Positions 19,465-41,565 of a stretch of DNA of 64,000 nucleotides are shown here, in pieces. A program made the translations under genes and the position numbers. The notes beneath the pieces were generated by a model, which did not search any database, was not told the DNA's origin, and saw only the letters and a program-made list of their open reading frames with translations. Source of the DNA: an uncultured Acidimicrobiales bacterium (lineage in GTDB: Bacteria; Actinomycetota; Acidimicrobiia; Acidimicrobiales; SHLQ01); assembly GCA_964441145.1 (NCBI GenBank), contig CAYTUB010000002.1, positions 3,305-67,304 on the forward strand, in the 5' to 3' direction. How positions within the stretch are numbered: the stretch's first letter is position 1; every line of letters begins with the position of its first letter.

Positions 19465-19483
19465 TTGCGTGGACAGCGCTCAA
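19465..19483. promoter_or_regulatory. imperfect HAIR-like operator upstream of dnaK
   Basis: TTGCGT-GGACAGC-GCTCAA (one mismatch per half-site versus TTGAGT-N7-ACTCAA), 73 nt upstream of the dnaK ATG. A second weaker site CTTAGT-N7-ACTCAA lies at 19561-19579. Confidence 0.5.
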
Positions 19484-19644
19484 GTGTAAGAGGTGCAACG
19501 AAGTTCGCGGGTCGCCGTGGCGGCCAGCTGGCTTTCTGCACTACTCGACGGGAGCCAATCCTTAGTCACATCCACTCAACTTTCACTAGGCAAGATCTAT
19601 TCCCAAATTCCCTTTTTCGTGTCTGGGAACCAAAAGACGCCTTG

Positions 19645-19851
19645 CGTCACACGAGACGACCTAGTCTCCGGCGGCAATGGCGACGACTTCATTGGCGGCG
19701 ATGGGGCGACGACACAATCAACGGCGGCAACGGCGAAGACTTCCTGATTGGTGGAGACGGTGCAGACAACGTCAATGGCGGCGATGGCGAAGACATTTGC
19801 TTCCCCAATAACTTCGCGGGAGGCGGGGGCAGGCAAAATTGCGAAGGGTAA
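19645..19851 (+). pseudogene. relic of the C-terminus of an RTX-family paralogue (frameshifted, no 5' part)
   Basis: Reads DDLVSGGNGDDFIGGDG in one frame. It then reads DDTINGGNGEDFLIGGDGADNVNGGDGEDICFPNNFAGGGGRQNCEG* in the next, keeping the family D-x-C-x13-C-E end. There is no signal peptide and no blades. Confidence 0.6.
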
Positions 19852-19933: not shown

Positions 19934-21874
19934 ATGCCCCAGATTCACGGATCAACACACGCATTTCGGCGACTGCAGAAGACAGCGGTGTTGTCTGTTG
20001 GCCTGACGGTCGCTCTAGTGCTCGGGCTTGCCACGGCAAGTTCCGGGCAGGTGTCCGGCGAACCCACGACGCAAGACCAGCGAGTCGTGGCCAGCGACCC
20101 AGGTACCGGCGACAGGTTCGGTACTGCAATCGCGATCGACGGCGACACGATGGTCATCGGCGCCGGGTTTGGCGACGAATTTACCGGAGCCGCATATGTG
20201 TTCGTGCGCACCGGCGACACCTGGATCGAAACACAACGACTCGTCCCCGCCGACTCTCAAACGTTCGACGGCTTTGGTTTCGCCGTGGCCATCGAGGGAG
20301 ACACAATCATCATCGGCGCAAGCCTCTCCAGTCCGTTCGTTGCCCCAGGCGAGTTGCAGGGAACGGGCGCGGCATATGTGTTCATGCGCACCGGCGACAC
20401 GTGGACCGAAACACAGAAACTGTCAGCAGACGCCCCGCAAGCAGACGGCAGGTTCGGTGCACAGCTCGCGATCGACGGCGACACACTGGTAGTCGGCGCT
20501 CCAGCAGTCGAAGATTCAGCGCAAGCGACCCATGTGTTCACCCGCACGAATGACTCCTGGACCGAAACGCAACGCTTCGCCATTCCCGATGCCGATCCAC
20601 AGAACTTCGGCACTCATGCTTTTGGCAATGCAGTCGCCATCGACGGCGACACCATCCTCGTCGGAGAAGCGTCCAGTCTGGGGAATTTTCGGGAGACCCC
20701 CGTCTATGTATTCACAGAAACCAACGGCACATGGGATCAAAGCCAAATCCTGGTGCCGACCGATCCTGAAGGAATCGGTGGTGGCGGCTTCGGTCTCTCG
20801 ATAGCAATCGACAACGACACCATCATCATCGGCGCACCCGAGACCCGGACCGCACTTCTCCGCGACTTGGGAGCGGTCTACGTGTTCAGCCAGAGCGGAA
20901 CTGCGTGGACCCAGACACAACGGTTGCAGAGTGCAAACCCACAAGCAGACGACAGGTTTGGCAGAACTGTGGCCATCGACGGCGACACCGCGATCATTGG
21001 TGCCGACACCAGGGTCACCATTGGTGGACCGGCACCAATGGATGATGTCGATGAGAGTCATGTCTCTGTATTGACTCGAATTGGCACCACCTGGACCGTG
21101 ACACAACAGCTGGCCCGATCCGACGCGCAAACAATCAACGGTTTCGGCGGCCCGGTAGCCATCGCTGATGAGACCGTCGTCGTCGGTGCATTCGCAGGTG
21201 AAGCCGGCGACATCGAGGATGCCGGAGCGGCCTATGTCTTCACGGTTGACCCTCCCCAGTTCTGCAACGGCGAACTAGTGACGGTGAATCTCGCTGCGGG
21301 CGATGTTCCAACCGATGGCCCTGACGTGATCTTGGGAACCAATGGCCCGGATGTGATCGACGCCGGTGCGGGCAAGGACGTCATTTGCGCTGAGGGTGGT
21401 GCTGACACCATCGACGCAGGCGATGGCAACGACACGATCTTTGGCGGTGCCGGTGCGGACAGCATCCAAGCAGGAAAAGGCAACGACACCGTCAACGGAA
21501 ACGGCGGCGATGATTTCGTGGTCGGCGGCAAGGGCAACGACACCCTCAACGGAGACGCTGGAGACGATGAGCTTCGTGGCGGCGCCGGCAACGACACCCT
21601 CGATGGCGGCACCGGCAAGGATGACCTCCGCGGCGACGACGGAGCCGACACCCTCAAAGGCAACAAGGGCAACGACGAACTTCGCGGCAACAAGGGAGCC
21701 GACGACATCAAAGGCGGAAACGGCAACGATGACCTCCGCGGCGGCAATGGAGCTGACGAACTCAACGGCGGCAAAGGAACCGACGAGCTCGACGGCGGCA
21801 ACGGCGAAGACACCTGCGAACTAGACCCCGACGGTCGCAACGAAGACACCCGGCGCTGTGAACTCACCGGTTAG
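19934..21874 (+). CDS. secreted FG-GAP beta-propeller (7 blades) + RTX Ca-binding repeat protein, paralogue 1
   Basis: Signal peptide ...LVLGLATASSGQ. Seven FG..(A/V)I(D/E)GDT..(V/I)GA units. Junction FCNGELVTVNLAAGDVPTDG at 21263, then 17 GxGxDx(L/I)xG nonapeptides, ending DTCELDPDGRNEDTRRCELTG. Confidence 0.85.
   Translation: MPQIHGSTHAFRRLQKTAVLSVGLTVALVLGLATASSGQVSGEPTTQDQRVVASDPGTGDRFGTAIAIDGDTMVIGAGFGDEFTGAAYVFVRTGDTWIETQRLVPADSQTFDGFGFAVAIEGDTIIIGASLSSPFVAPGELQGTGAAYVFMRTGDTWTETQKLSADAPQADGRFGAQLAIDGDTLVVGAPAVEDSAQATHVFTRTNDSWTETQRFAIPDADPQNFGTHAFGNAVAIDGDTILVGEASSLGNFRETPVYVFTETNGTWDQSQILVPTDPEGIGGGGFGLSIAIDNDTIIIGAPETRTALLRDLGAVYVFSQSGTAWTQTQRLQSANPQADDRFGRTVAIDGDTAIIGADTRVTIGGPAPMDDVDESHVSVLTRIGTTWTVTQQLARSDAQTINGFGGPVAIADETVVVGAFAGEAGDIEDAGAAYVFTVDPPQFCNGELVTVNLAAGDVPTDGPDVILGTNGPDVIDAGAGKDVICAEGGADTIDAGDGNDTIFGGAGADSIQAGKGNDTVNGNGGDDFVVGGKGNDTLNGDAGDDELRGGAGNDTLDGGTGKDDLRGDDGADTLKGNKGNDELRGNKGADDIKGGNGNDDLRGGNGADELNGGKGTDELDGGNGEDTCELDPDGRNEDTRRCELTG
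21263..21871 (+). repeat. 27-nt-period coding repeat (RTX nonapeptides) of paralogue 1; equivalent blocks occur in all members
   Basis: GAGKDVICA EGGADTIDA GDGNDTIFG GAGADSIQA GKGNDTVNG ... The other blocks start at 23660, 24583, 26595, 27760, 28633, 32439, 33661 and 35596. Confidence 0.85.
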
Positions 21875-22009
21875 TGCACCTAGTAGCAGTCCAGTGACGC
21901 TACGAAATTTTGTGTTCCTCGTCCACTGTTCCTTCACTCGTTGCCAACTCCACCGATAGAGGAATGGGCCTGAAGAAATTCAGGGTCTTCAACGACGAAA
22001 GGCGGGGAC

Positions 22010-24238
22010 ATGAGATCCCTAAAAACAACGCGTACTACCGCGCGCACTGAACGTACAACGAGGAAACGGCTTCGCCACACAGCCCTTTGCTCCATCCTGC
22101 TCACCACAGCGATAACGCTGGGCTTCACGGCAACCAGTACCGCCCAGGAGGTCGAGGGTCTTGCCGAGGATCAAAAGCTCGAGGGGTCGACAGATGGTCT
22201 CCTCCCCGGTGGATTCGGATTTTCCGTCGCCGCTGACGACGACACCATTGTCATTGGCGTCCCGTTCGAGACGGGTGACGGCGCAGCGTACGTGTACGAA
22301 AACACTCCTCAGGGCTGGCTGCAGACGCAGCGCCTCACCAGCAACGATGCAGCTGACGATGAGCTCCTTTTTTTCGGAGGGGGCGATCAGTTCGGCCAGG
22401 CGGTAGCCATCGACGGCGACACCATCATCGTCGGCGCACCAGCGGACACGAACTTCCCCGACGACGACGTCTTAAGAGCTTTGGGATTCATTGGTTGTTG
22501 CGAGGACGACTTCGGATTCTTCGGAGCGGCATACGTGTACGAGCGTGACGGTTCGGACTGGACGGAAACACAACGGCTCACCGACGCCGACTTCGTTTCG
22601 CTCGACAGCGATGACAACTTCTTTGTCCCGACCAGCGAGGGATTCGGCCAGGCGGTAGCCATCGACGGCGACACCATCGCCGTTGGAGCGCCCATCGGTA
22701 ACTTCAATGGTGGAACCGCCTACGTCTACGAGCGAACCGACCAAGCATGGCAATCCCAGCAAGCACTAACGGCACTCCCTGACAATTCGCCAGCGGTTCC
22801 AGGCGTTGAAATCCAACAAGGCTTTGTCTCATTCTTCAATGATGATCTCTTCGGGTACTCCCTGGCAGTCGATGGCGACACCATCGTCGTCGGTGCACCT
22901 CTCTATGGCGAAATTCCGGTCGTCAACGAGAGTTTCAATGCCGAAACCAGACCAGCGGTTGAACTCGGGGTAATCGGAAACCCGAACACCTCCGCGAACG
23001 GCGCAGCACACGTGTTCTCATTCGACGGAGACCAATGGAATGAAGACCAACGACTGTTCGGAGACGAAGAGTTCTTCGAGTTCGAGTTCGAGGACGAAGT
23101 CGACTTCGGGGACGAGATCGACTTCGGCGATGAATTGCGTCTACTCGGAATTGAAACGTTCGACGGTGGCGATCAGTTTGGTTACTCGGTAGACATCGAC
23201 ACCGACACCATCGTGGTTGGTGCGCTGTTGGAAGATGGCGAAACCTACGACGAAGGTGCCGCATACGTCTTTGCAAACAATGGTGGCATCTGGACTGACG
23301 TAGACACCCTTACTCCACTCGTTCCCGAGAGCGGTGCTCGCTTCGGTCGATCGGTCGCCATCGAAGGTGACAGCATCGTTGCTGGCTCACCCTTTGGAAA
23401 CGGCTACACGGGAGCGGCGCACCTCTTCCGCAATGACAGCGAAAGCGGATTCGAAGAAGTTGAACTCGTTGCATCCGATATCGAAGCTGGCGAGGGCTTG
23501 GGATTCTCTATTGCCTTGTCCGGCGGTACAGCTGTGGCGGGAGCGCCGCTCAATGTCAGTCTGTTCGGAGTCGACCGGGGCTTCGGCGGCGAATTCTTCA
23601 CCGACACTGGTCCGGGTGCCGCGTACGTCTTCGATGTGAGCGCTGAGCCACCGGTCCTTTGCAACAACGAAGAGGTGACCGTGAACTTGGCCCTCGGAGA
23701 TGTTCCTACCGATGGTGACGACGTGATTCTCGGAACCGATGGACCCGATGTGATTGAGGCTGGTGCCGGAAGCGACACGATCTGCGGCGGCGATGGCGAC
23801 GACACCATCAACGCTGGTGCTGGTGACGACACCGTCCTTGGCGGTTTGGGTGACGACACCATCAACGGCAGCGGCGGTGACGACGTCATTTCCGGTGACA
23901 AAGGAGCCGACATCATCAACGGTGATTCCGGTAATGACGAGCTTCGAGGCAACAAGGGCAACGACACCATCAACGGTGGCAGCGGCCTGGATCTCCTCGT
24001 CGGCAGTTCGGGCAACGATGAACTTCGAGGTGGCAAAGCCAGCGACACCCTCAAAGGTGGGACAGGCTCCGACACCCTCAAGGGAGGCAACGCTGACGAC
24101 GACCTGAGTGGCGGCAACGGCGCTGACGTTCTCGACGGCGGCGTAGGTATCGACAACCACAACGGTGGTGGCGGCGAAGACACCTGTGTGGCTGACCGCT
24201 CTGGGCTAAACGAAATCACTGAAAGGTGCGAGCTCTAG
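22010..24238 (+). CDS. secreted FG-GAP beta-propeller + RTX protein, paralogue 2
   Basis: 742 aa with a signal peptide ...GFTATSTAQE and 7 blade signatures. An acidic insert EEFFEFEFEDEVDFGDEIDFGDE is present. Junction LCNNEEVTVNLALGDVPTDG; ends DTCVADRSGLNEITERCEL. Confidence 0.85.
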   Translation: MRSLKTTRTTARTERTTRKRLRHTALCSILLTTAITLGFTATSTAQEVEGLAEDQKLEGSTDGLLPGGFGFSVAADDDTIVIGVPFETGDGAAYVYENTPQGWLQTQRLTSNDAADDELLFFGGGDQFGQAVAIDGDTIIVGAPADTNFPDDDVLRALGFIGCCEDDFGFFGAAYVYERDGSDWTETQRLTDADFVSLDSDDNFFVPTSEGFGQAVAIDGDTIAVGAPIGNFNGGTAYVYERTDQAWQSQQALTALPDNSPAVPGVEIQQGFVSFFNDDLFGYSLAVDGDTIVVGAPLYGEIPVVNESFNAETRPAVELGVIGNPNTSANGAAHVFSFDGDQWNEDQRLFGDEEFFEFEFEDEVDFGDEIDFGDELRLLGIETFDGGDQFGYSVDIDTDTIVVGALLEDGETYDEGAAYVFANNGGIWTDVDTLTPLVPESGARFGRSVAIEGDSIVAGSPFGNGYTGAAHLFRNDSESGFEEVELVASDIEAGEGLGFSIALSGGTAVAGAPLNVSLFGVDRGFGGEFFTDTGPGAAYVFDVSAEPPVLCNNEEVTVNLALGDVPTDGDDVILGTDGPDVIEAGAGSDTICGGDGDDTINAGAGDDTVLGGLGDDTINGSGGDDVISGDKGADIINGDSGNDELRGNKGNDTINGGSGLDLLVGSSGNDELRGGKASDTLKGGTGSDTLKGGNADDDLSGGNGADVLDGGVGIDNHNGGGGEDTCVADRSGLNEITERCEL

Positions 24239-24264
24239 CGATCCACTAAACCCTCACCCGAAGG

Positions 24265-24300
24265 CCCCCTTCCCTGCACGGGGAGGGGGTCTTTGTGCTT
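24265..24300 (+). terminator. intrinsic terminator after paralogue 2
   Basis: CCCCCTTCCC (24265-24274) pairs with GGGGAGGGGG (24280-24289) over 10 bp including one G-U pair, with a 5-nt loop, then TCTTTGTGCTTT. Confidence 0.7.
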
Positions 24301-24459
24301 TCACTGAGCGTTGCGAAGAGCAGTAATCTTTTTGCGCCTTTGGGAACCAGATCGGGCAACGCTTCGTACAAGACCTCGATTGAACGGACTATTTCGAACG
24401 CACTGTGGCGAATGGTACTCTCGGTGATAAGTCGACTGCGAAAGGTGGCTAGCAGCGTA

Positions 24460-25230
24460 ATGATGGCGAACATTCAAGGAAGAGGTAGGCGACCTCAAGC
24501 GTGGCTCGCACTGCTCGGCATGATCGGAATCACGCTCGCGTCAGCGTCCCCGGTCGGAGCTCAGTCTTCCGACCCTTTATTTTGTAGCGGCGAAATCGTG
24601 ACGGTCGATCTGGCCGCTGGGGACCTCCCGACCGACGGTGACGACGTGATTCTCGGGACCGATGCTGATGACTTAATCATCGCCGGTGCAGGCAACGACA
24701 TCATCTGTGGAGAGGGGGGCGACGATTCGATCGTCGGCGGCAACGGCGCCGACCTCATCTTGGGCGGGGACGGCGACGACAGCATCGCTGCCGGCGGGGG
24801 TCGTGACTTCGTAGATGCCGGCAACGGCGACGACTCGGTATCGGGTGGCACCGACGGAGATGTGATTGCCGGAGGCAACGGAAACGACACTCTCGGTGGG
24901 GGTAGAGGCTTCGACGTTGTATTTGGAGACGGCGGTGGTGACTTGCTCCTCGGCGGCCGAGGTAACGACGTACTCGACGGCGGACTCGGGAACGACGTAC
25001 TCGACGGCGGCCGCAATAGCGACAACCTCTTCGGAGGCCCCGGCGACGACGTCATCACCGGCGGTCGAGGTTTCGACAACCTGTTCGGAGGCGCCGGCGA
25101 CGACAACCTGCTCGGCGGCCCTGGTTTCGACTCGTACACGGGCGGCCGAGACGGCCAGGATCTCTGCCTTCTTTCATCCTCGGACCTCATCGACGACGTC
25201 CGCGGCTGCGAGGTCATCGATCAAGAATGA
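24460..25230 (+). CDS. secreted RTX-only paralogue 3 (no propeller blades)
   Basis: ATG 24460 follows SD AAAGGTGG and gives MMANIQGRGRRPQAWLALLGMIGITLASASPVGAQSSDPLFCSGEIVTVDLAAGDLPTDG. The signal peptide runs straight into the junction motif and the RTX repeats. Ends DLCLLSSSDLIDDVRGCEVIDQE. Confidence 0.75.
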   Translation: MMANIQGRGRRPQAWLALLGMIGITLASASPVGAQSSDPLFCSGEIVTVDLAAGDLPTDGDDVILGTDADDLIIAGAGNDIICGEGGDDSIVGGNGADLILGGDGDDSIAAGGGRDFVDAGNGDDSVSGGTDGDVIAGGNGNDTLGGGRGFDVVFGDGGGDLLLGGRGNDVLDGGLGNDVLDGGRNSDNLFGGPGDDVITGGRGFDNLFGGAGDDNLLGGPGFDSYTGGRDGQDLCLLSSSDLIDDVRGCEVIDQE

Positions 25231-25253
25231 GAACTGGAGCGGAGCAGAACATC

Positions 25254-27449
25254 ATGACCTCGATACGGCGATACAGGGGACGAGGATGGCTTGTCATGCT
25301 CGGCGCGATCGGACTGACGCTCGCGTTCGCCTCGGCACTCGGCGCCCAAGTAGACCTCGAGCCAACGACCGAGGACCAACACCTGACCGCCTCCGACGGC
25401 GAGTTGGGCGATCGATTCGGTTTCAGCGTTGCGATCGACGGCGACACCATCGTCATCGGCGCACCTGGGGACTTCTTCGACAGCAACGAGGGTGCCGCCT
25501 ACGTCTTCACTCGAACCGATGACGCCTGGATCGAGACGCAAACGCTGACCGCATCAGACGGCCAAGACTTTGATCACTTTGGTAACTCGGTGGCTATTGA
25601 AGGCGACACCATCGTCGTCGGTGCAAGCTCGGGCGAGGGCGCCGCCTACATCTTCACCAGAGCCGACAACACCTGGACCGAAACACAACAACTCACCCCA
25701 CCAGATGGCCAAGACTTTGGGGGGTTCGCCAGCAGCGTCGCTATCGACGGTGACACCATCGTCATCGGCGCACCCTTTAGTGACTCGCCCGATACAAGAC
25801 GAACAGGTGCGGCCACCGTCTTCACCCGCGCCGACGCCATCTGGAGCCAAACACAGGTACTGGCCTCATCGGACGGTCAGCAGATTGACTGGTTCGGGTT
25901 CTCGGTCGCCATCGACGGTGACACCATCGTCATCGGCGCACCGAACGCCGACACCGGCCTTAACGGCGAACGGATCTCCCCGGGAGATGGAGGGACTGAT
26001 CGTTCAGACGAGGGCGCCGCCTACATCTACACCAACACCAACAACACCTGGACCGAACAACAAAAGCTCATCGCATCAGACGGTCAAGTGAAGGACTTCT
26101 TCGGCTCCGCGTTAGCCATCGACGGAGACACCGTCGTCATTGGCGCAACTGGATTTTTCGAGTTCAGCAGCTCTGACTCGGGCGCTGCGTACATCTTCAC
26201 TCGCAACGACAACACCTGGACGCAAACGCAACGGCTATCCACCAATGACTCTGGGTTTACGCTGTTTGGTTTCTCGGTCGCCATCGACAGCGACACCGCC
26301 ATCGTCGGCGCCCTCTTCACGCCGACAACTGAAAACGTCAGACAAGCCTCGTACGTATACGAGCGCACCGAGGGCACGTGGAACGAGGTGCAGGTGGTCG
26401 CCTCAGACCAAACGGTACTGGGGGACTTTCCAAGCCAACTGATGGCTATCGACGGCGACACGCTCGTTGTGGGCTCACCCAACACGGTCGGTTTGGACGA
26501 CACCGACGTGAACGAACGGTTCGGAAACGGAGGTGGGGGCATCGGAGCGGCAGATGTCTTCGAACTCGACCTCCCCCAACCTCAAATCCCACTGTGCGGC
26601 CTCGAAGCGGTAACGGTCGACCTCGCAACCGGAGATACTCCGACAGATGGTGACGATGTCATCCTTGGAACCGACGGTGACGACATCATCAACGCCGGAG
26701 CAGGCAATGACATTATTTGCAGCCAAGGCGGAAACAACACCATCAACGGCGGAGCCGGCGCAGACCTCATCTTTGGCGCTGACGGAGACGACGTCATCGA
26801 TGCCGGACAGGGTCGAGACGTTATCTTTGGCGGTGGGGGTGCCGACACGCTTACCGGCGGACGGGGAGACGATGAGATCCTTGGCGGCAGCGGAGCAGAC
26901 ACCATCAGCGCCGGAAACGGTAGAGATGAGATCTTTGGCGGTCCCGGGTCTGACGTCCTTATCGGCGGAAACAAGAACGACCGCGTTAACGGCGACGAAG
27001 GTGATGACACCATCGACGCGGGCAAAGGAAACGACTTCATTGACGGCGACGAAGGTGATGACACCATCGACGCCGGGTTGGGTGACGACCTCGTCCGTGC
27101 CGGTGACGGAGCGGACGTCGTGGACGGCGGACGCGGCGCAGACAATATCTTCGGCGGCATCGGAGCCGACATCATCCGAGCCGGCAAGGGCAGCGACTGG
27201 ATCGACGCAGGTGCCGGTGACGACACTGTTCGAGGCGGCAGCGGTAACGACGGCCTCGACGGCCGCAAAGGAAACGACCTGCTCCGCGGTGGCGGCGGAG
27301 ACGATCGACTCAACGGTGGCCGCAATGACGACACCCTTATGGGAGGTAGCGGCGATGACATTCTCGACGGAGGCGACGACGAAGACGTCTGCAAACCCGA
27401 CCCCGACGGTCTCGACGAATTCAGCGAAAACTGCGAGCTCGACGGCTAG
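25254..27449 (+). CDS. secreted FG-GAP beta-propeller + RTX protein, paralogue 4
   Basis: ATG 25254 follows GGAGCGGAG and gives MTSIRRYRGRGWLVMLGAIGLTLAFASALGAQ. An alternative ATG at 25227 overlaps the paralogue 3 stop. There are 7 blades and the longest RTX block. Ends DVCKPDPDGLDEFSENCELDG. Confidence 0.85.
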   Translation: MTSIRRYRGRGWLVMLGAIGLTLAFASALGAQVDLEPTTEDQHLTASDGELGDRFGFSVAIDGDTIVIGAPGDFFDSNEGAAYVFTRTDDAWIETQTLTASDGQDFDHFGNSVAIEGDTIVVGASSGEGAAYIFTRADNTWTETQQLTPPDGQDFGGFASSVAIDGDTIVIGAPFSDSPDTRRTGAATVFTRADAIWSQTQVLASSDGQQIDWFGFSVAIDGDTIVIGAPNADTGLNGERISPGDGGTDRSDEGAAYIYTNTNNTWTEQQKLIASDGQVKDFFGSALAIDGDTVVIGATGFFEFSSSDSGAAYIFTRNDNTWTQTQRLSTNDSGFTLFGFSVAIDSDTAIVGALFTPTTENVRQASYVYERTEGTWNEVQVVASDQTVLGDFPSQLMAIDGDTLVVGSPNTVGLDDTDVNERFGNGGGGIGAADVFELDLPQPQIPLCGLEAVTVDLATGDTPTDGDDVILGTDGDDIINAGAGNDIICSQGGNNTINGGAGADLIFGADGDDVIDAGQGRDVIFGGGGADTLTGGRGDDEILGGSGADTISAGNGRDEIFGGPGSDVLIGGNKNDRVNGDEGDDTIDAGKGNDFIDGDEGDDTIDAGLGDDLVRAGDGADVVDGGRGADNIFGGIGADIIRAGKGSDWIDAGAGDDTVRGGSGNDGLDGRKGNDLLRGGGGDDRLNGGRNDDTLMGGSGDDILDGGDDEDVCKPDPDGLDEFSENCELDG

Positions 27450-27457
27450 GCACCGAG

Positions 27458-29226
27458 ATGACCATGGCCACACCGCAGCAACGCATCTACCGCGCATGGT
27501 TCGCGCTGCTCGGAGCGATCGGCCTGACGTTCTTATTCGCCTCCGCTCTTGGAGCGAAAGCCACTATCCAACCCACAACTGAGGACCAACAATTGCTTCG
27601 TACTGACGGTCAAGAGGATGACTTTTTCGGTCGGTCGGTGGCAATCGACGGCAACACCATGGTGGTCGGAGCTTCCGGTGCCGCGGACCAGCAGGGTACG
27701 GCCTATGTCTTCGAACGTGACGACTTGACATTGACCCCGAGCAGCCCGCTGTGGTGTTGTGCGGCGCTCTGCCAGTAACGGCCGATCTCGCCGCGGGTGA
27801 TCTCCCGACCGACGGCGAAGATGTCATCCTCGGAACGAACGATGATGACGTGATCCTCGCAGGCGCAGGAGACGACATCATCTGCGGACAAGGCGGAAAC
27901 GACAGCATCTTCGGCGATGGAGGTGACGATGCCCTCTTCGGGAATCGTGGGGACGACTCACTCGACGGCGGCGCTGGCAGCGACGAACTCGATGGCTCTT
28001 TCGAGAACGATGCCTTACGAGGCGACCGCTCCACATTCGTCGCCGGCGCCCCAAGCGACTTTTCAGCATCCCTAAAGACAGGCGCTGCGTATATCTTCAC
28101 CCAAACCGACGACACCTGGACCGAGACCCAAACACTTGAGAGCGCGCTCGATCAGCGAGGCGATCACTTTGGCGAATCAGTCGCTATCGAAGGCGACACC
28201 ATCTTCGCTGGGGCACCCTATGGGTTTGTCTCCGAGGGGAATGAATCGCAGCGCAACAATCTGGCGGATGGCGCAGTCTTCATCTTCGATCGCACCGGCG
28301 ACACCTGGAGCGAGACACAGAGCTTCTCCATCACCGCCGAAAGCCATGAGGCCTTAGGAATGTCCGTCGATCTCGATGGTGACACTGCCGTCGTCGGGTC
28401 TGGAGACTTTCGAGGTGACGGATCGGCGTACCTGTACACACGAACCGATGGCACATGGGCTCAACAAACACGATTCCGTGCGACTGACTCCACCCGTGGT
28501 GCCGAGATGGGACGGTCCGTGGCAATCGATGGCGACACCATCTTCGCCGGCGCACCAAATGACGACAACAACGACACGGGGTCAGGAGCAGCGTTCGTCT
28601 TTGGCACCGATGCACTCAACCAAACAGTTGCGTGCCACGGCAGCCCAGTCACCGTTGATCTCGCAGCCGGCGAACTCCCCACCGACGAAGACGACGTCAT
28701 CTTGGGAACCGATGGCCCCGACGTCATCGAGGCTGGCAAGGGCAGTGACATCATCTGCGCCTTCGGCGGCGATGACACGATCGACGCCGGAAATGGCCAA
28801 GACCTCATCTTCGCTGGCGACGGCGACGACACCATCAGCGCCGGTGGCGGTTCTGACATCGTCCATGCCCAAGGTGGCGACGACGTCGTAACCGGTGGCA
28901 GCCACCACGACATCATCATGGGTGGTGCCGGTAACGATGATCTCCGTGGCGGTGCGGGTCAAGATGAACTCCGCGGCGGACATGGCAACGACAAGCTGCG
29001 TGGTGGGCAAGCGAAAGACACGCTCTTTGGCGCTAACGGCAAGGACACGCTTATCGGTGGCAAAGGCCCCGATAAGCTTGAGGGTGGCAGAGGCCTAGAC
29101 GCCTCCGACGGCGGACAAGGAGTTGACCTCTGCGAAGCCCTCTTCGACGACCGTGACGAAGAAACCACGAGCTGCGAGTTCGATGACTTCTTTGAATTCG
29201 CCGATTTTATCTATGACGTTGGCTGA
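27458..29226 (+). pseudogene. chimeric paralogue 5, interrupted by a frameshift near 27720
   Basis: ORF 27458-27778 encodes a signal peptide plus one blade (...TAYVFERD) and then runs into nonsense. The family junction (LDIDPEQPAVVLCGALPVTADLAAGDLPTDG) continues in the -1 frame (ORF 27751-29226). Overall order: short RTX block, about 4 blades, second junction (VACHGSPVTVDL, 28633), second RTX block, cap. Confidence 0.6.
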
Positions 29227-29242
29227 TGCTCGACGGGGTCCA

Positions 29243-30859: not shown

Positions 30860-31052
30860 GACTCCAGCTTAGGAGGGCGGTGCAGGCGGCGGTTGCAGTT
30901 GGGCCTCACCAAAACTGATCGTTTCGTCGGCAGTCGCCTTTATTGGGAGATAGGTGATTTGGCCCATACACAACGGGACTCACGAATCAGGTGCCAAATA
31001 CCACAGAGAGTGATTATAGATACACACGACAAGTTAAGAAAAGGCGGCATCC

Positions 31053-32990
31053 ATGCCCAGTAATTCACCCTCCCTACGCAATTCACGTTGGCTCCGGAGA
31101 ACAACCATCTCCTCGCTAGCACTCACCGGAACACTCCTCTTCGGCTTCACCGCAGTAAGCGCTCAAGCTCAAGCACCGACAAACGTCGAAGGTCAGACGC
31201 TTGTAGCCGATGATCTCGCATCGCTCGCTGAGCTCGGCGATGCCGTCGCAATCGACGGCGACACCCTCATCGTCGGCGCACCTTCGCCCGATCGAGCTGA
31301 AGAGGGCGCCGCATATATCTTCACTCGCGATGCCGCAGGTGAGTGGGCCAACCCACAGAGAATCACCGCGGGCGATGCCGGCGGTGGCGATCTCTTCGGC
31401 ACCGCCGTCGCCATTGATGGCGACACCATCATCGTCGGCGCTTCAGGTGATCGCGACTTCGGATTCGGTTCAGGTTCTGCCTACGTCTTCACCCGCACCG
31501 GCACCAGCTGGACCGAGCAGGCGAAACTCAACGCCATCGACGGACGATCCAGCGACAGTTTCGGTGTGTCGGTAGCTATTAGCGGCGACACCATCGCTAT
31601 CGGCGCAATCGGTCGAGACGATGTCTATACCGGACCCCTCGTCGACCCTATGACCCAGGAACCCGTCTTGGACGCAAACGGAGACCCTGTACTCGGCCTC
31701 CTCGTCGACCAGGCAGACATCGGTTCAGTCCACATCTTTAGCCGCACCGGCACCAGCTGGACACAGCAACAAGAGGTCGTGGCAAGCGACTTTGCTGCGA
31801 GTGATCAGTTCGGCTCAGCAATCGCTATCGACGGCGACACCCTCGCTGTTGGCGTACGCCAGGACGATACCGCTGCAGGCAACGACGCCGGTTCTGCCTA
31901 CGTCTTCACCCGCACCGGGACCGACTGGACCCAGCAACAACAGTTGTTCTTCGCGGACGAAGCACAGTTCGACTTCTTCGGTGACTCGATCGCCATCGAC
32001 GGAAACACCATCGCAGTCGGTGTTCCTGGCGAAGATCCCGGGGGCGTCACCGCTTCTGGAGCAGTGGCCATCTTTACGGGCGCAGGCGACAACTGGACCC
32101 AAAGCCAAGAGCTCACAGCACCAGCACCAGCCTTGAATGACCAATTCGGCTTCTCGCTCGACATCGAGGGAACCAGCATCATCGTCGGTGCTCCTTCAAA
32201 TCTCCAGGGCGCAACAAACACGGGTGCGGCGTACGTCTACACCTCAGCGGCCGGAGTCTGGTCACTAGATCAAGAGCTTGTGCCTAGCCAACCGGTTGCA
32301 TCGGACGAATTCGCTAATGCAGTTGCAATCTCTGGCGGTACCGCACTAGTCGGCGCACCAGCTATCGATACTGCGTTCGTCTATGCCGATGGCCTTGACG
32401 TAGCACCGCCACCACCACCAGAACCAGTGGTCCCGACCTGTAACGGTCTCGAAGTAACCGTCAACCTCGCACTTGGGGATGTACCGACTGCTGGCGACGA
32501 TGTGATTCTCGGAACCGACGGTCCTGACGTGATTGAAGCTGGCGACGGCGCAGATGTGATCTGTGGCGGCGACGGCGACGACATCATCCGAGCCGGCAAG
32601 GGCGGCGACTGGATCGACGCAGGTGCCGGTGACGACACTGTTGCTGGCGGCAAGGGCCACGACACCATCAACGGTGGCGAAGGCAACGATGACCTCCGCG
32701 GTGACAAGGGCCGAGACACCATCAACGGTGGCGAAGGCAACGATGACCTCCGCGGTGACGAGGGCCAAGACACCATCAACGGTGGCGAAGGCAACGACGT
32801 CCTCCGAGGCGGCACGAAAGCTGACGTACTCAACGGTGACGCCGGTGACGACAACCTTGGTGGCGGTAAGGGAACTGACATCCTCGATGGCGGTATCGGC
32901 ATAGATGAGTTCAACGGCGGCGGCGGCACCGACAGCTGCACGGTAGATCCCAACGGTCTGACCGAAATCGTCGCTAAGTGTGAGAACTAG
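31053..32990 (+). CDS. secreted FG-GAP beta-propeller + RTX protein, paralogue 6
   Basis: 645 aa with a signal peptide ...FGFTAVSAQAQA and 7 blades. Junction PTCNGLEVTVNLALGDVPTAG; ends DSCTVDPNGLTEIVAKCEN. Confidence 0.85.
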   Translation: MPSNSPSLRNSRWLRRTTISSLALTGTLLFGFTAVSAQAQAPTNVEGQTLVADDLASLAELGDAVAIDGDTLIVGAPSPDRAEEGAAYIFTRDAAGEWANPQRITAGDAGGGDLFGTAVAIDGDTIIVGASGDRDFGFGSGSAYVFTRTGTSWTEQAKLNAIDGRSSDSFGVSVAISGDTIAIGAIGRDDVYTGPLVDPMTQEPVLDANGDPVLGLLVDQADIGSVHIFSRTGTSWTQQQEVVASDFAASDQFGSAIAIDGDTLAVGVRQDDTAAGNDAGSAYVFTRTGTDWTQQQQLFFADEAQFDFFGDSIAIDGNTIAVGVPGEDPGGVTASGAVAIFTGAGDNWTQSQELTAPAPALNDQFGFSLDIEGTSIIVGAPSNLQGATNTGAAYVYTSAAGVWSLDQELVPSQPVASDEFANAVAISGGTALVGAPAIDTAFVYADGLDVAPPPPPEPVVPTCNGLEVTVNLALGDVPTAGDDVILGTDGPDVIEAGDGADVICGGDGDDIIRAGKGGDWIDAGAGDDTVAGGKGHDTINGGEGNDDLRGDKGRDTINGGEGNDDLRGDEGQDTINGGEGNDVLRGGTKADVLNGDAGDDNLGGGKGTDILDGGIGIDEFNGGGGTDSCTVDPNGLTEIVAKCEN

Positions 32991-33011
32991 TAGCTCACAG
33001 TAATAAGAACC

Positions 33012-33053
33012 GAAGGCCCCTTCCTCCTCACGGGAAGGGGCCTTCCACGTTTT
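33012..33053 (+). terminator. intrinsic terminator after paralogue 6
   Basis: GAAGGCCCCTTCC (33012-33024) and GGAAGGGGCCTTC (33033-33045) form an exact 13-bp stem with an 8-nt loop, then CACGTTTT. Confidence 0.75.
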
Positions 33054-33139
33054 CAGGTGGTGTCGCTCTCGCTTCAGGTTGCAATCAACGTTGCCGATAT
33101 CTATTTCGCGAGTATCGACGCCGGCGGAGGGCATCGCAC

Positions 33140-34239
33140 ATGGCTACAACACCTCACACAAGACCTATCTCCAAGAGACCAACGGGTGCATTATTGGTCA
33201 TGTTGTTGGTCATCATCGGGGCGGCAACTGCGGCCGGAGCGCAAAACACATCGGTAACAACCGAGGATCAAAAGCTCACCGGCATCGATGCCGACGCATC
33301 CGATCAGTTCGGTGATGCAGTCGCGATCGATGGAGACACCTTGGTCGTCGGTGCACCCTTCGGCAATCAAGGCGTTGGCTCGGCCTACGTCTTCGAACGT
33401 TCCGGATCAACCTGGATCCAACAAGCAACGTTGACGGACAACCCTTGGTGGACAGTCAGGGTTCAGCCACGGTCTTCCGCAGAGCTGGCAACAACTGGAA
33501 CGAGCTCACCACACTGATCGCATCTGACGGCATCGGCTCTGACGGATTTGGGTACGCAATCGGCAACGACGGTGGCAGCATTGTCGTTGGCGCCCCATTC
33601 GATAGCACTCTCGATTCGGCCCGCGGCGCAGCGTATGTCTTCAGCATCGAGCAAGTTACCTGCGCCGGCCTCGCAGTGACCGTGAACGTGGCTAACGGCG
33701 ATGTACCTACCGATGGCGACGATGTGATTCTTGGAACGGATGGTCCCGACGTGATCAACGCCGGTGCCGGACGCGATGTCATCTGCGGGGAGGGTGGTGC
33801 CGACACGATCAACGGCGGCTCCCGAAACGACGTCATCTTCGGAGGGGCCGGTGCTGACACCATTCAGGCTGGTAAAGGCAACGACACGGTCAACGGCAAC
33901 GGAGGCGCCGACATCATCACCGGTGGCAACGGTCGGGACACCATCTTCGGTGACGCCGGCGCTGATGAGCTCCGCGGCAACCAAGGAAGTGACACCATCA
34001 ACGGCGGCTCTGGAAACGACCTTCTCGTCGGGGGCTCTGGTACCGATGAGCTTCGCGGCGTCAAAGGGTCCGACACCATCAACGGCGGCAACGGCAAGGA
34101 CCTGCTCGTTGGCGGTAACGGAGCTGACGATCTCGACGGCGGCATCGGAAACGATGAGTACAACGGTGGCGGCGGCAACGACACCTGCGCCGCAGACCCC
34201 GACGGCCGAAACGAAGTATCCGCAAACTGCGAGAGCTAA
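33140..34239 (+). pseudogene. paralogue 7: internal-deletion derivative with a frameshift at the junction (about 33436-33447)
   Basis: ORF 33140-33517 gives a signal peptide plus blade 1, very similar to the paralogue 8 N-terminus. After ...QQATLTDNP the family sequence (LVDSQGSATVFRRAGNNWNELTTLIASDG..., last blade + RTX + cap) continues in the -1 frame (ORF 33445-34239). Confidence 0.6.
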
Positions 34240-34383: not shown

Positions 34384-36255
34384 ATGACCAAACCACTTCG
34401 CCCAGGAACCCTGCCAAAGAAACCCACGGCTGCATTGCTCGTCATAGTGTTGCTCATTATCGGCGCAGCATCCGCCGTCGGAGCCCAAAGCACACCGGTA
34501 ACGAACGAAGATCAAAAGCTCACCGTCGACGGTGCCGAAGCATTCGATCGACTGGGTGAAGCAGTGGCAATCGATGGCGACACCTTGGTCGTCGGTGTGC
34601 CCGTCGACGACGATTCCCTTGGCTCGGCGTACGTCTTCGAACGTTCGGGGTCCAACTGGGTCCAACAGGCGAGGTTAACGTCAACAAACGATTCTGGTAG
34701 CGAAGTCGCCTTCGGGGCGGCCCTAGCGATCGACGGAGACACGATCGTTGTTGGCGCACCACTAGAAACACCAGACGACAATTTCAGACTCGCCGACGCG
34801 GGTGCTGCCTACGTATTTGTTCGATCTGGCAACGACTGGAACTTGCAGGCGCGAATAGTCGAACCAGTCAACCAAGGTTCCGGAAATTCATTCAGCGCTT
34901 CAGTGGCTATCGAGGGCGACACAATCGCCATAAGTGCGCCATTTTCGCAGACACCTGCGAGCTACGTGTTCGAACGGTCTGGCAACAACAACTGGAACTT
35001 CCAAACCGAACTCCAATCACCAAACACCATCGTGGGCGGAATGTCTGTCGCGATCGATGGGAACACCATCGTTGCTTCCTCAGAGATTCACTCCGGCAAC
35101 ACCTTCCAAGGTGCTGTAGATGTCTTCACAAACACCGGTGCGTCATGGGAACATCAAGACACGCTCGTGACTACGGCGCCTCAAGAGTTTGGTCTCCCGC
35201 ATTCCGTCGACATCGACGGCGACACCATCGCCACACTTAGCGACGAGGGAACCCTGATCTTCACCCGTTCGGGAACCACCTGGACTGAACGAGCAAATAT
35301 CGCCAGTCTGGGGGCCGTCTCGCTATCGGACAATGTACTTACGGTCGCACAACCCGCCGACGACTCAGCGATCGTATTTGGTGGATCAGGGAGCGATTGG
35401 TTTGAGCTTACGAGGTTGGTCGCCTCCGATGGTCAATTTGGTGATGCGTTTGCAATCAGCTTCTCGGGTGGGAACCCAATTGATAACGACGGTGGCACCA
35501 TCATCGTTGGCGCACCCTTTGCTGGCAGTCTGAATGCCGCTGTTGGGGCGGCGTATGTGTTTAGCGTCGAGTTCTCATTGGCTGATATCGAGGTCTGCAA
35601 CGGCGAGCTCGTCACAGTGAACCTCGCTGATGGTGATCGTCCTACCAACGGTGCGGACGTGATTCTTGGAACCGATGGCGATGACGTGATTGGCGCTGGT
35701 GCCGGAAACGACACCATTTGTGCTGGAGCTGGCAATGACACCATCAACGCTGGCGACGGTGCAGACACGGTCTTCGGTGGCGGCGGTGACGACATCATTA
35801 ACGGCGGCCAAGGCCAAGACGTCATAGACGGCAACGGCGGTGACGATGTCATTTCGGGTGGCAAGGGCAAGGACGTCATCAACGGCGGCTCGAATAACGA
35901 CGACCTTCGGGGCAACGACGGCGACGACACCATCGATGGCGGCAACGGGGACGATGTCATTAACGGCGGCGTAGGCAAGGACAACCTTCGCGGTAGAAAG
36001 GGAGCCGACGTCATCACTGGTGGCAACAGCAACGACGTGATCAGTGGCGGAGCCGACCGAGATGAACTGCGTGGCAGCAAGGGCCAGGACGCCATCGTCG
36101 GTGGCAACAGCAACGACATCCTTATCGGTGGCGATGGAGCTGACGATCTCGACGGCGGCATCGGAAACGATGAGTACAACGGTGGCGGCGGCAACGACAC
36201 CTGCGCCGCAGACCCCGACGGCCGAAACGAAGTATCCGCAAACTGCGAGAGCTAA
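34384..36255 (+). CDS. secreted FG-GAP beta-propeller + RTX protein, paralogue 8
   Basis: 623 aa with a signal peptide ...LLIIGAASAVGAQ and about 7 blades, the later ones degenerate. Junction EVCNGELVTVNLADGDRPTNG; ends DTCAADPDGRNEVSANCES. Confidence 0.85.
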   Translation: MTKPLRPGTLPKKPTAALLVIVLLIIGAASAVGAQSTPVTNEDQKLTVDGAEAFDRLGEAVAIDGDTLVVGVPVDDDSLGSAYVFERSGSNWVQQARLTSTNDSGSEVAFGAALAIDGDTIVVGAPLETPDDNFRLADAGAAYVFVRSGNDWNLQARIVEPVNQGSGNSFSASVAIEGDTIAISAPFSQTPASYVFERSGNNNWNFQTELQSPNTIVGGMSVAIDGNTIVASSEIHSGNTFQGAVDVFTNTGASWEHQDTLVTTAPQEFGLPHSVDIDGDTIATLSDEGTLIFTRSGTTWTERANIASLGAVSLSDNVLTVAQPADDSAIVFGGSGSDWFELTRLVASDGQFGDAFAISFSGGNPIDNDGGTIIVGAPFAGSLNAAVGAAYVFSVEFSLADIEVCNGELVTVNLADGDRPTNGADVILGTDGDDVIGAGAGNDTICAGAGNDTINAGDGADTVFGGGGDDIINGGQGQDVIDGNGGDDVISGGKGKDVINGGSNNDDLRGNDGDDTIDGGNGDDVINGGVGKDNLRGRKGADVITGGNSNDVISGGADRDELRGSKGQDAIVGGNSNDILIGGDGADDLDGGIGNDEYNGGGGNDTCAADPDGRNEVSANCES

Positions 36256-39370: not shown

Positions 39371-39387
39371 CTTATGTCTACTTCCCT

Positions 39388-40195: not shown

Positions 40196-40196
40196 A

Positions 40197-41563: not shown

Positions 41564-41565
41564 TA

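What the first reader, a model, noticed from the sequence alone, without database searches (positions are those of the whole stretch)
21263..21874. Every RTX block is bracketed by an invariant Cys frame: C-x-G..VTV(N/D)LAxGDxPTDG..DxIC at the start and D-x-C-x13-C-E at the end
All eight genes and the relic end with D-x-C, exactly 13 residues, then C-E. Examples are DTCELDPDGRNEDTRRCE, DTCVADRSGLNEITERCE, DLCLLSSSDLIDDVRGCE, DVCKPDPDGLDEFSENCE, DLCEALFDDRDEETTSCE, DSCTVDPNGLTEIVAKCE, DTCAADPDGRNEVSANCE (twice) and DICFPNNFAGGGGRQNCE. This motif usually lies 1-5 residues from the stop.

Every RTX block opens with C-x-G-x-x-V-T-V-(N/D)-(L/V)-A-x-G-(D/E)-x-P-T-x-G-x-D-V-I-L-G-T...D-x-I-C. Classical RTX proteins are type I secretion substrates with an uncleaved C-terminal signal. 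Here the proteins have N-terminal signal peptides, the C-terminus is a Cys-capped module, and no ABC/MFP/outer-membrane T1SS genes are in the window. This points to a Sec-exported, possibly disulfide-stapled variant of the beta-roll.
Basis: partly seen in the sequence, partly recalled or inferred. Interest (0 to 1): 0.6.

Follow-up and report, generated by a model that had tools for sequence, protein, structure and literature searches.

The report
Cysteine-capped, Sec-exported RTX beta-roll module
A cluster of secreted proteins from a Gram-positive-type marine or soil actinobacterium carries the calcium-binding "RTX" repeat rod known from Gram-negative toxins, but with an ordinary N-terminal export signal and two conserved cysteine pairs at the rod's ends instead of the usual C-terminal secretion signal; the same module occurs in many single-membrane microbes and appears not to have been described.

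Summary
The window has eight paralogous + strand genes (19934-36255) and one 3' relic (19465-19851). In these, the pattern D-x-C-x13-C-E occurs 9 times, always 1-15 residues from a stop (0.06 expected by chance). The 42-residue opening frame C-x4-VT(V/A)(N/D)(L/V)AxG(D/E)xPT-x23-IC also occurs 9 times.

Each intact protein has a signal peptide, usually a 7-bladed integrin-alpha-like FG-GAP propeller, and a continuous RTX beta-roll of 13-24 nonapeptides. AlphaFold2 models the roll with pLDDT 94.8. The four frame cysteines are the only cysteines in most mature proteins.

The host is an Acidimicrobiales-type actinobacterium, and the window covers its dnaA/dnaN origin region. No ABC, MFP or TolC genes lie in the window or beside 26 related loci.

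The frame is conserved far beyond these paralogs, in Acidimicrobiia, Nocardioides, Nonomuraea, Solirubrobacterales, Patescibacteria and Nitrosopumilus. There it sits behind many different extracellular domains. Diderm RTX hits lack it and mostly have no cysteine.

Mature cysteine counts are even in 36 of 36 relatives. Two local disulfide caps are therefore likely.

Verdict: a new variant of a known kind, of moderate interest.

The parts
19465..19851 (+). Relic: the 3' end of a paralog. It holds about 4 RTX nonapeptides and the closing frame DICFPNNFAGGGGRQNCE (19792-19845). It has no signal peptide and no opening frame.
19934..21874 (+). g1 (646 aa). Signal peptide (about aa 1-36), 7 FG-GAP_2 blades, opening Cys frame C444..C485 (21263-21388), 15 uninterrupted nonapeptides, closing frame C628-x13-C642-E (21809-21862).
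22010..24238 (+). g2 (742 aa). Same architecture as g1. Opening frame 23660-23785, closing frame 24179-24232. An extra vicinal Cys163-Cys164 lies in the propeller.
24295..25230 (+). g3 (likely start ATG 24460). Signal peptide plus Cys-capped RTX module only, with no propeller, so the module can stand alone. Opening frame 24583-24708, closing frame 25159-25212.
25227..27449 (+). g4 (740 aa). Signal peptide, 6-7 FG-GAP_2 blades, and the longest roll (24 nonapeptides between C2 and C3). Opening frame 26595-26720, closing frame 27384-27437.
27458..29226 (+). g5, a frame-broken chimera. It starts with a signal peptide and one blade (27458-27778), then changes frame. Next come an orphan opening frame (27760-27885) and a short RTX run without a closing frame, then 3 FG-GAP blades. 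It ends with a complete capped module (opening 28633-28758, closing 29125-29178).
31053..32990 (+). g6 (645 aa). Signal peptide, 7 FG-GAP_2 blades, capped module (opening 32439-32564, closing 32931-32984). An identical protein is present in public assemblies (P0271).
33140..34239 (+). g7, a frame-broken short copy. Signal peptide plus one blade (from 33140), a frame change near 33445, then the last blade and a capped module (opening 33661-33786, closing 34180-34233).
34384..36255 (+). g8 (623 aa). Signal peptide, FG-GAP_2 propeller, capped module (opening 35596-35721, closing 36196-36249). Its last 120 nt are identical to those of g7.

Best explanation
These are Sec-exported extracellular proteins of a single-membrane actinobacterium (Acidimicrobiales type). 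Their C-terminal domain is an autonomous, calcium-dependent RTX beta-roll closed at both ends by its own cysteine-containing caps. It has no type I secretion signal.

Shown:
- Each intact gene encodes a cleavable-type signal peptide, usually a 7-bladed integrin-alpha-like FG-GAP propeller, and one uninterrupted beta-roll of 13-24 GGxGxDxUx nonapeptides.
- C2 sits at the outward-facing position 9 of the second full nonapeptide.
- C3 sits at the core-facing hydrophobic position 8 of the last nonapeptide.
- C1 lies 41 residues before C2, in a non-repeat leader (C-x-G hairpin, then the VTVNLAxG strand).
- C4-Glu lies 14 residues after C3, almost at the C-terminus.
- The same frame occurs in many monoderm lineages behind unrelated extracellular domains.

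Inferred:
- After Sec translocation, N-terminus first, the leader folds back on the outer face of the first rungs and is stapled by a C1-C2 disulfide. This would give an N-terminal folding nucleus.
- Calcium binding then folds the roll from N to C as it emerges.
- The last 15-20 residues make one short irregular rung whose C4 plugs the open hydrophobic core by bonding C3. This would replace the C-terminal capping structure and secretion signal that classical RTX proteins need.
- The disulfides would be made by the actinobacterial extracytoplasmic oxidoreductase system.
- The roll probably serves as a rigid, calcium-stabilised stalk or stabilising domain for the N-terminal binding or catalytic domain.
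For: Architecture:
- Pfam finds FG-GAP_2 (E 1e-11 to 1e-89) and HemolysinCabind (E 1e-24 to 1e-53) in all copies.
- AlphaFold2 models the g1 module with pLDDT 94.8 and pTM 0.90. Three-residue strands recur every 9 residues, and extra strands at 200-202 and 205-206 form a last short rung.
- In the full-length model, residues 1-41 lie outside the fold.
- Foldseek matches the roll to CyaA RTX, the MpAFP calcium beta-helix, lipases and serralysins. It matches the head to integrin alpha propellers.

Register:
- The C2-to-C3 distance equals 9n+8 in 7 of 8 genes.

Secretion route:
- A signal-peptide heuristic is positive for all 8 N-termini.
- There are no Tat hits.
- No ABC, HlyD or TolC genes are among 30 flanking ORFs.
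- No Walker A plus LSGGQ signature occurs in six frames of the window or of 26 related loci.
- Only 16-30 residues follow C3.

Conservation:
- All 26 genome loci found with the opening-frame profile are from Actinomycetota or Thaumarchaeota, and nearly all keep both cysteine pairs.
- Among named protein hits, 5 of 5 with the frame are monoderm (Nonomuraea, Thermopolyspora, Patescibacteria). Of 23 named hits without it, none is monoderm.
- 75 of 120 and 64 of 120 RTX hits have no cysteine at all.

Frame goes with signal peptides:
- 26 of 38 frame-bearing hits are positive against 21 of 200 frame-less hits.

Pairing:
- The mature cysteine count is even in 36 of 36 proteins.
- Pairs occur or vanish as units: an orphan opening pair in g5, L006 and L019, and a closing pair alone in the relic and in Nonomuraea-type proteins.
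- The rod geometry puts the two pairs 13-24 nonapeptides apart, so only C1-C2 and C3-C4 pairings are possible.

Literature:
- Actinobacterial Sec-exported proteins show even-biased cysteine usage and Dsb-like enzymes (PMC2823432).
- RTX rolls need end caps to fold (PMC6891781, PMC9120197, PMC5618222).
Against: - No coordinates were available, so the Cys-Cys distances in the model are unknown.
- Simple 18-residue stacking would place C1 two to three rungs from C2. The C1-C2 bond therefore needs the leader to fold back, which I could not verify.
- pLDDT falls to about 75-78 over the last 20 residues.
- Signal peptides were judged by a home-made rule, not by SignalP.
- The organism assignment rests on relatives and gene content, not on a named genome.
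- There are no expression or protein data.
- The rest of the genome could not be searched for a T1SS or for DsbA/VKOR.
- Calcium binding and the biological role are inferred.
Confidence: 0.7

Rival explanations
1. The cysteines are functional but do not form intramolecular end-cap disulfides. They might form intermolecular disulfides (covalent dimers or polymers, or attachment to another envelope protein), or they might bind a metal.
For: - C2 points outward from the sheet, judging by its position in the nonapeptide, so it is accessible.
- A regular-stacking argument puts C1 and C2 rungs apart.
- Distances could not be measured.
- Tandem paralogs could form hetero-oligomers.
Against: - The C1-C2 spacing is fixed at 41 residues in all 9 window copies, and spacings in remote homologs stay narrow: 40-50 residues for C1 to C2 and 8-16 for C3 to C4.
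- C3 occupies the buried position 8, so it is not available for partners outside the molecule.
- Stand-alone and fused proteins keep exactly the same four cysteines.
- Two thiols per site is poor metal coordination for an extracellular protein.
Confidence: 0.12
2. These are ordinary RTX substrates of a type I (ABC/MFP) exporter encoded elsewhere in the genome. The N-terminal hydrophobic segments would not be cleaved signal peptides.
For: - RTX repeats are the hallmark of T1SS substrates (PMC3034196).
- Only one 64 kb window of the genome was seen.
- A Gram-positive HlyB/HlyD-type operon next to an RTX gene has been noted in Streptococcus sanguinis (PMC3034196).
Against: - All 8 N-termini have canonical n/h/c-region signal peptides.
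- The protein ends 16-30 residues after the last repeat, and that tail is modelled as a folded cysteine loop.
- No ABC, MFP or TolC genes are in the window or beside 26 related loci.
- The relatives are monoderm.
- The review that found RTX genes in six Actinobacteria found no T1SS homologues in those genomes (PMC3034196).
- T1SS substrates characteristically lack cysteines (PMC6891781).
Confidence: 0.05
3. Export is by the Tat pathway, as a folded protein, rather than by Sec.
For: Several n-regions contain Arg-Arg: g1 FRRLQK, g3 GRRPQ, g4 IRRYR, g6 WLRRTT. The g6 motif is conserved in its orthologues. The g6 h-region is only weakly hydrophobic.
Against: - No hit to the Pfam or NCBIfam TAT signal models, even at E up to 10.
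- g2, g5, g7 and g8 have no RR motif.
- RTX rolls need millimolar calcium and disulfides need an oxidising compartment, and neither is available before export (established knowledge; PMC6891781, PMC2823432).
Confidence: 0.05
4. The 'invariant frame' is only a by-product of recent gene duplication and has no structural meaning.
For: - There are eight tandem paralogs.
- g7 and g8 share a 120-nt identical 3' tract.
- 37 other columns are also invariant in the 13-sequence alignment.
Against: - The paralog modules are only 51-68% identical.
- The same four cysteines are kept in proteins at 44-60% identity from other orders, phyla and even Archaea, behind unrelated N-terminal domains.
- Cysteine is otherwise absent from these proteins.
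Confidence: 0.03

Closest known systems
Classical RTX exoproteins secreted by type I systems (serralysin/alkaline protease, family I.3 lipases, CyaA, HlyA)
   Same: - Tandem GGxGxDxUx nonapeptides (PF00353) predicted to form a parallel beta-roll.
- The roll is a C-terminal module behind enzymes or binding domains.
- The roll needs end caps.
- The opening strand VTVNLAxG aligns with the start of the serralysin roll.
   Different: - These proteins have an N-terminal signal peptide and no C-terminal secretion signal.
- They carry four conserved cysteines, where the classical proteins have none or one.
- No linked ABC/MFP genes were found.
- The hosts are monoderm.
- The folding direction after export would be N to C rather than C to N (PMC6891781, PMC9120197).
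RTX genes noted in Actinobacteria by Linhartova et al. 2010 (PMC3034196)
   Same: RTX-repeat genes in Gram-positive genomes that lack T1SS homologues.
   Different: That review only recorded their existence as a surprise. It reported no signal peptide, cysteine frame, cap or distribution.
C-terminal capping structure of CyaA RTX block V
   Same: A short non-repeat segment after the last nonapeptide that closes the roll and is needed for calcium-induced folding (PMC9120197, PMC5618222).
   Different: - The CyaA cap has no cysteines.
- It nucleates folding from the C-terminus, which leaves the T1SS duct first.
- Here the closing segment is a 14-residue cysteine loop ending in C-E. A second, N-terminal cap exists at the end that leaves the Sec channel first.
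Cysteine-rich LRRNT/LRRCT caps of extracellular leucine-rich-repeat solenoids
   Same: In concept: disulfide-bonded N- and C-terminal caps that shield the hydrophobic core of a repeat solenoid in extracellular proteins (PMC2637281).
   Different: There is no sequence or fold relationship. The repeat type differs, and these are eukaryotic families. This is an analogy only.
MpAFP region IV calcium-dependent beta-helix (PDB 3p4g)
   Same: It is the best global structural match to the long straight roll (TM 0.59 normalised to the query).
   Different: It has a 19-residue repeat, is part of a giant T1SS adhesin, and has no cysteine caps.

Membership tests
RTX / HemolysinCabind repeat proteins (PF00353 beta-roll) | Tandem nonapeptides GGxGxDxUx | tested here: met
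   PF00353 matches at E 2e-24 to 9e-53 in all eight proteins. The C2-C3 spacing is 9n+8 in 7 of 8 genes.
RTX / HemolysinCabind repeat proteins (PF00353 beta-roll) | Parallel beta-roll fold | tested here: met
   The AlphaFold2 model has pLDDT 94.8, with strands every 9 residues. Foldseek hits CyaA RTX, lipases and serralysins. This is a prediction only.
RTX / HemolysinCabind repeat proteins (PF00353 beta-roll) | Calcium binding in the turns | not testable with these tools
Classical RTX exoproteins (T1SS substrates) | Uncleaved C-terminal secretion signal downstream of the repeats | tested here: not met
   Only 16-30 residues follow C3 of the last repeat. They form the conserved cysteine loop.
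Classical RTX exoproteins (T1SS substrates) | No N-terminal signal peptide | tested here: not met
   All 8 N-termini show n/h/c regions with an A-x-A site. Residues 1-41 lie outside the fold in the model. This is a heuristic, not SignalP.
Classical RTX exoproteins (T1SS substrates) | Dedicated ABC transporter, membrane fusion protein and TolC-type outer membrane factor, usually linked | tested here: not met
   None are among the 30 flanking ORFs scanned. No ABC-ATPase signature occurs in the window or in 26 related loci. The rest of the genome is not testable.
Classical RTX exoproteins (T1SS substrates) | Cysteine-poor, no disulfides | tested here: not met
   Four invariant cysteines per module. 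The property is described in PMC6891781.
Integrin-alpha-type FG-GAP beta-propeller | Seven FG-GAP blades forming a propeller | tested here: met
   PF14312 matches with up to 7 stretches. The top 47 Foldseek matches of the full model are integrin alpha-subunit chains, best E 2e-14.
Tat-exported proteins | Twin-arginine signal (S/T-R-R-x-F-L-K) | tested here: not met
   No Pfam TAT_signal hit. No hit to a TAT signal model in NCBIfam at E up to 10. RR is present in only 4 of 8 n-regions.
Disulfide-capped solenoids (LRRNT/LRRCT-like) | Cysteine pairs within each cap close enough to bond | not testable with these tools
   Structure prediction returns no coordinates. Only indirect evidence is available: even parity in 36 of 36 proteins and pairs gained or lost together.

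The most novel reading that the evidence does not exclude
There may be a distinct 'monoderm-type' RTX module that the searched literature does not describe. It would be a self-contained C-terminal beta-roll, exported by Sec. It would fold N to C outside the cell and be locked by a disulfide strap at its N-terminal end and a disulfide plug at its C-terminal end. It would have spread as a mobile domain among secreted enzymes and beta-propeller proteins of Actinomycetota, Patescibacteria and ammonia-oxidising archaea. If so, the RTX roll evolved, or was retained, independently of type I secretion. Its capping problem would have been solved in a second way, and that solution could be borrowed directly for engineered beta-roll scaffolds.
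Probability: 0.45. Interest if true: 0.65.

Novelty: new variant of a known kind. Interest (0 to 1): 0.5.

Why it matters
[quoted passage not shown] Their lack of cysteines, and their C-to-N calcium-ratchet folding, are explained by that route.

A widespread version with a Sec signal peptide, no C-terminal signal and two conserved cysteine pairs shows three things:
- The beta-roll is useful in its own right as an extracellular calcium-stabilised rod.
- It separates the repeat from the secretion system.
- It explains the long-noted but unexplained RTX genes in Actinobacteria, which have no T1SS.

There are also practical consequences. Annotation pipelines that label such genes 'RTX toxin' or 'hemolysin' mislead. 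Naturally self-capped short rolls, such as the roughly 190-aa stand-alone proteins, could help protein engineers, who currently have to add artificial caps to make beta-rolls fold.

Tried and rejected
1. The profile search of 1.84 billion representatives with the 55-residue opening frame was swamped by giant multi-repeat RTX proteins whose domain scores add up. Only about 6 of the 150 listed hits carry the full frame, so no family size could be derived.
2. The exact look-up of g3 failed because its start codon is ambiguous. g1 was found on 13 metagenome contigs, but without an organism name.
3. The cluster look-up of ten frame-bearing proteins returned no organism names.
4. The structure tool gives pLDDT and DSSP but no coordinates, and no model file appears in /data. 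The decisive Cys-Cys distance was therefore not obtained. My attempt to deduce it from DSSP and 18-residue stacking was inconclusive for C1-C2.
5. A PDB sequence search with the opening-frame profile found only generic RTX starts (serralysins align from the VTVNL strand onward). No solved structure has the cysteine leader.
6. No Tat signal model matched.
7. Five literature searches for Sec-dependent, cysteine-capped or Gram-positive RTX rolls found no description. The library does not cover most subscription journals.
8. I considered a sorting-signal reading of the C-terminal C-E (LPXTG, PEP-CTERM or similar). I rejected it because no hydrophobic or transmembrane tail follows.
Full report
**Observation.** The interval 21263-21874 runs from the codon of Cys444 to the stop of a 646-aa ORF, g1 (19934-21874). 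The window holds eight paralogous genes on the + strand:
- g1, 19934-21874
- g2, 22010-24238
- g3, 24295-25230
- g4, 25227-27449
- g5, 27458-29226
- g6, 31053-32990
- g7, 33140-34239
- g8, 34384-36255

A 3' relic lies at 19465-19851.

A six-frame scan for D-x-C-x13-C-E finds exactly nine sites, each at the end of one of these units. Shuffled sequence gives 0.06. A scan for C-x4-VT[VA][ND][LV]AxG[DE]xPT-x23-IC also finds nine sites. C1 and C2 are always 41 residues apart, and 23 of 55 columns of the opening frame are invariant.

There are two exceptions to 'every block is bracketed'. The orphan opening frame at 27760-27885 in g5 has no closing frame. The relic has only the closing frame. Both are truncated or frame-broken pieces.

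In g1, g3, g4, g6 and g8 the four frame cysteines are the only cysteines of the mature protein.

**What the genes encode.** Pfam finds up to seven FG-GAP_2 repeats, followed by HemolysinCabind (RTX) repeats. g3 has the RTX part only. NCBIfam gives only sub-threshold RTX-type matches and no model for either cap.

AlphaFold2 models the g1 C-terminal module (208 aa) with mean pLDDT 94.8 and pTM 0.90, as one continuous roll. Three-residue strands recur every nine residues from residue 27 to 191. Two further short strands (200-202, 205-206) add a last irregular rung that contains C4. A short hairpin (F5-C6 / E9-L10, with an N-G turn) and a strand precede the first repeat.

Foldseek matches the roll to the CyaA RTX domain, the calcium-dependent beta-helix of MpAFP (TM 0.59), family I.3 lipases and serralysins.

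The full-length g1 model (pLDDT 81.7) has three parts: a low-confidence N-terminal helix (residues 14-31 within 1-41), a seven-bladed propeller, and the roll. The propeller's best PDB matches are integrin alpha subunits.

The C2-to-C3 distance is 9n+8 (n = 13-24) in seven of eight genes. The nonapeptide register is therefore unbroken. C2 occupies position 9 of a repeat, which faces outward. C3 occupies position 8 of the last repeat, the buried hydrophobic position.

**Genomic and taxonomic context.**
- Upstream lie clpB, a dnaK-grpE-dnaJ-hspR operon and purine genes.
- Downstream lie dnaN, dnaA, yidC, jag, parA, parB and trxB. This is the replication-origin region of an actinobacterial chromosome.
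- g1 occurs identically on 13 metagenome contigs.
- A scan of one genome per species with the opening-frame profile returned 26 loci. Most are Acidimicrobiales or Acidimicrobiia, including Ilumatobacter and Microthrixaceae. Others are two Nocardioides, one Pseudonocardiaceae, one Gaiellaceae, two Solirubrobacterales and two Nitrosopumilus/Thaumarchaeota. None is from an organism with an outer membrane.

**Conservation beyond the paralogs.** In those 26 loci the proteins keep two pairs:
- C1 and C2, spaced 40-50 residues apart;
- a closing pair, with C3 at position 8 of the last G-x-G-x-D-x-C repeat and C4 8-16 residues later. C4 is usually followed by Glu and lies 0-10 residues from the stop.

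An alignment of remote opening frames shows two classes:
- In Actinomycetota, C2 is at position 9 of the second full repeat.
- In Nitrosopumilus and Patescibacteria, the leader is shorter and C2 is at position 7 of the next repeat. This position also faces outward.

The module follows many unrelated extracellular domains: Spondin_N, FG-GAP_3/ASPIC, an apiosidase-like glycosidase, a right-handed beta-helix, RCC1, Vgb-lyase-type, PD40 and NHL propellers, PPC, GDSL lipase, M23 peptidase, trypsin and SASA esterase.

It also exists as a stand-alone protein of signal peptide plus module: g3, two Nocardioides proteins and two Solirubrobacterales proteins.

The FG-GAP_2 propeller itself is widespread with other C-terminal domains. 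Only four close orthologues combine it with RTX, and all four keep the frame.

**Contrast with diderm RTX proteins.**
- Of the 120 best hits to the g1 module, 75 have no cysteine and 15 have the frame.
- Of the 120 best hits to the module profile, 64 have no cysteine and 26 have both caps.
- All five frame-bearing hits that carry an organism name are monoderm: three Nonomuraea, one Thermopolyspora and one Patescibacteria.
- All 23 named frame-less hits are Proteobacteria, Planctomycetes or Cyanobacteria.
- A simple signal-peptide rule is positive for 26 of 38 frame-bearing hits. Most of the rest have visibly truncated signal peptides. It is positive for 21 of 200 frame-less hits.

**Secretion route.**
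- All eight window N-termini have a basic n-region, a 12-residue or longer uncharged hydrophobic stretch, and an A-x-A-type site, mostly ...LGA|Q or ...VGA|Q.
- No Tat model matched.
- No ABC transporter, HlyD or TolC homologue is among the 30 flanking ORFs scanned.
- No Walker A plus LSGGQ signature exists in any frame of the window or within about 3 kb of the 26 related loci.
- Only 16-30 residues follow C3, and they are modelled as part of the fold. This leaves no room for the roughly 50-60-residue signal of HlyA-type substrates (established knowledge).
- The 2010 RTX review already noted RTX genes in six Actinobacteria whose genomes lack T1SS homologues, without explanation (PMC3034196).

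**Are the cysteines disulfide-bonded?** This could not be tested directly. The structure tool returns no coordinates and no model file is exposed. The indirect evidence is consistent:
1. The number of cysteines in the mature part is even (4, 6 or 8) in 36 of 36 frame-bearing proteins with a recognisable signal peptide.
2. Pairs appear and disappear as units, never as single cysteines.
3. The roll is a straight rod, and the number of repeats between C2 and C3 varies from 13 to 24. Only C1-C2 and C3-C4 pairings are geometrically possible.
4. C3 is at the buried position of the last repeat. Its partner must enter the open end of the core, which is what a short terminal loop ending in C4 would do.
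5. Exported proteins of aerobic Actinobacteria show even-biased cysteine usage, and Dsb-like oxidases have been demonstrated (PMC2823432).

One caution applies. With regular 18-residue stacking, C1 would lie two to three rungs from C2. The C1-C2 bond therefore requires the leader hairpin to fold back over the outer face of the first rungs. The outward orientation of C2 is compatible with this, but it is not shown.

**Mechanism proposed (inferred).**
- Classical RTX domains leave the T1SS duct C-terminus first. They fold C to N from a C-terminal capping structure, and without a cap they do not fold (PMC6891781, PMC9120197, PMC5618222).
- A Sec substrate emerges N-terminus first.
- The conserved leader plus the C1-C2 staple would provide the nucleus at the end that appears first.
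- Calcium would then fold the roll N to C.
- The C3-C4 loop with its invariant Glu would seal the last rung and core. This would replace both the cap and the secretion signal.
- The roll then acts as a rigid calcium-stabilised C-terminal domain for propellers and enzymes. This parallels the enzyme-plus-RTX design of serralysins and lipases in diderms.

**Novelty.** Pfam and NCBIfam model only the repeats. No solved structure contains the cysteine leader. Five full-text searches found no description of cysteine-capped or Sec-type RTX rolls. A recent review states that the near absence of cysteines is a conspicuous feature of all RTX proteins (PMC6891781). The closest conceptual analogue is the pair of cysteine-rich LRRNT/LRRCT caps of extracellular LRR solenoids (PMC2637281). 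I rate this a new variant of a known kind.

**Limits.**
- Signal peptides were judged by a heuristic.
- The organism is inferred from relatives and gene content.
- Structures are predictions from shallow alignments (9-13 sequences).
- The literature library omits most subscription journals.
- Disulfides, calcium binding and function are untested.

Noticed in passing
34120-34239 and 36136-36255: The last 120 nt of g7 and g8, covering the final repeats, the closing Cys frame and the stop, are 120/120 identical. The sequence just upstream is about 60% identical, and downstream it drops to random. This looks like a recent gene-conversion tract over the C-terminal cap, or an assembly artefact between paralogs.
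   Followed up: partly
27458-29226 (g5) and 33140-34239 (g7): Both genes are frame-broken chimeras. Each starts with a signal peptide and one FG-GAP blade, then changes frame (about 27750 and about 33445). In g5 an orphan opening frame with about 5 RTX repeats then runs directly into FG-GAP blades with no closing frame. Public gene calls contain the same truncated g5 ORF (P0147), so the break is not unique to this window.
   Followed up: partly
19465-19851: Between the dnaK promoter region and g1 lies a 3' fragment of a ninth paralog. It holds about 4 RTX repeats and the closing frame, with no signal peptide or propeller.
   Followed up: yes
36582-45143: The paralog array abuts the chromosomal replication-origin gene set: dnaN, dnaA, yidC, jag, parA and parB. 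trxB is further on, and the dnaK-grpE-dnaJ-hspR operon and clpB lie on the other side.
   Followed up: partly
22496-22501 (g2 aa 163-164); also L012 aa 362-363 and L019 aa 157-158: Adjacent Cys-Cys pairs occur in the non-RTX parts of some family members. They may be vicinal disulfides, and they keep the total cysteine count even.
   Followed up: no
L027/L029 (Nitrosopumilus) aa 410-524; P0100, P0109, P0111, P0117: A second class of opening cap has a shorter leader (C-x-G-I-x-L-x-G...). Its second cysteine is at position 7 of the following nonapeptide instead of position 9 of the previous one. This class is found in ammonia-oxidising archaea and Patescibacteria-like proteins, where the closing loop is also shorter (C-x7-8-C or C-x11-C).
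   Followed up: partly
14665-15519: An ORF of 284 aa has a clear signal peptide and four cysteines but no Pfam match. It is another secreted protein of unknown family, next to the heat-shock operon.
   Followed up: no
31053-31170 (g6 N-terminus) and orthologues P0273, P0341, P0350: The n-region motif S-R-W-L-R-R-T is conserved among g6 orthologues and looks loosely twin-arginine-like. No TAT signal model matched it.
   Followed up: partly
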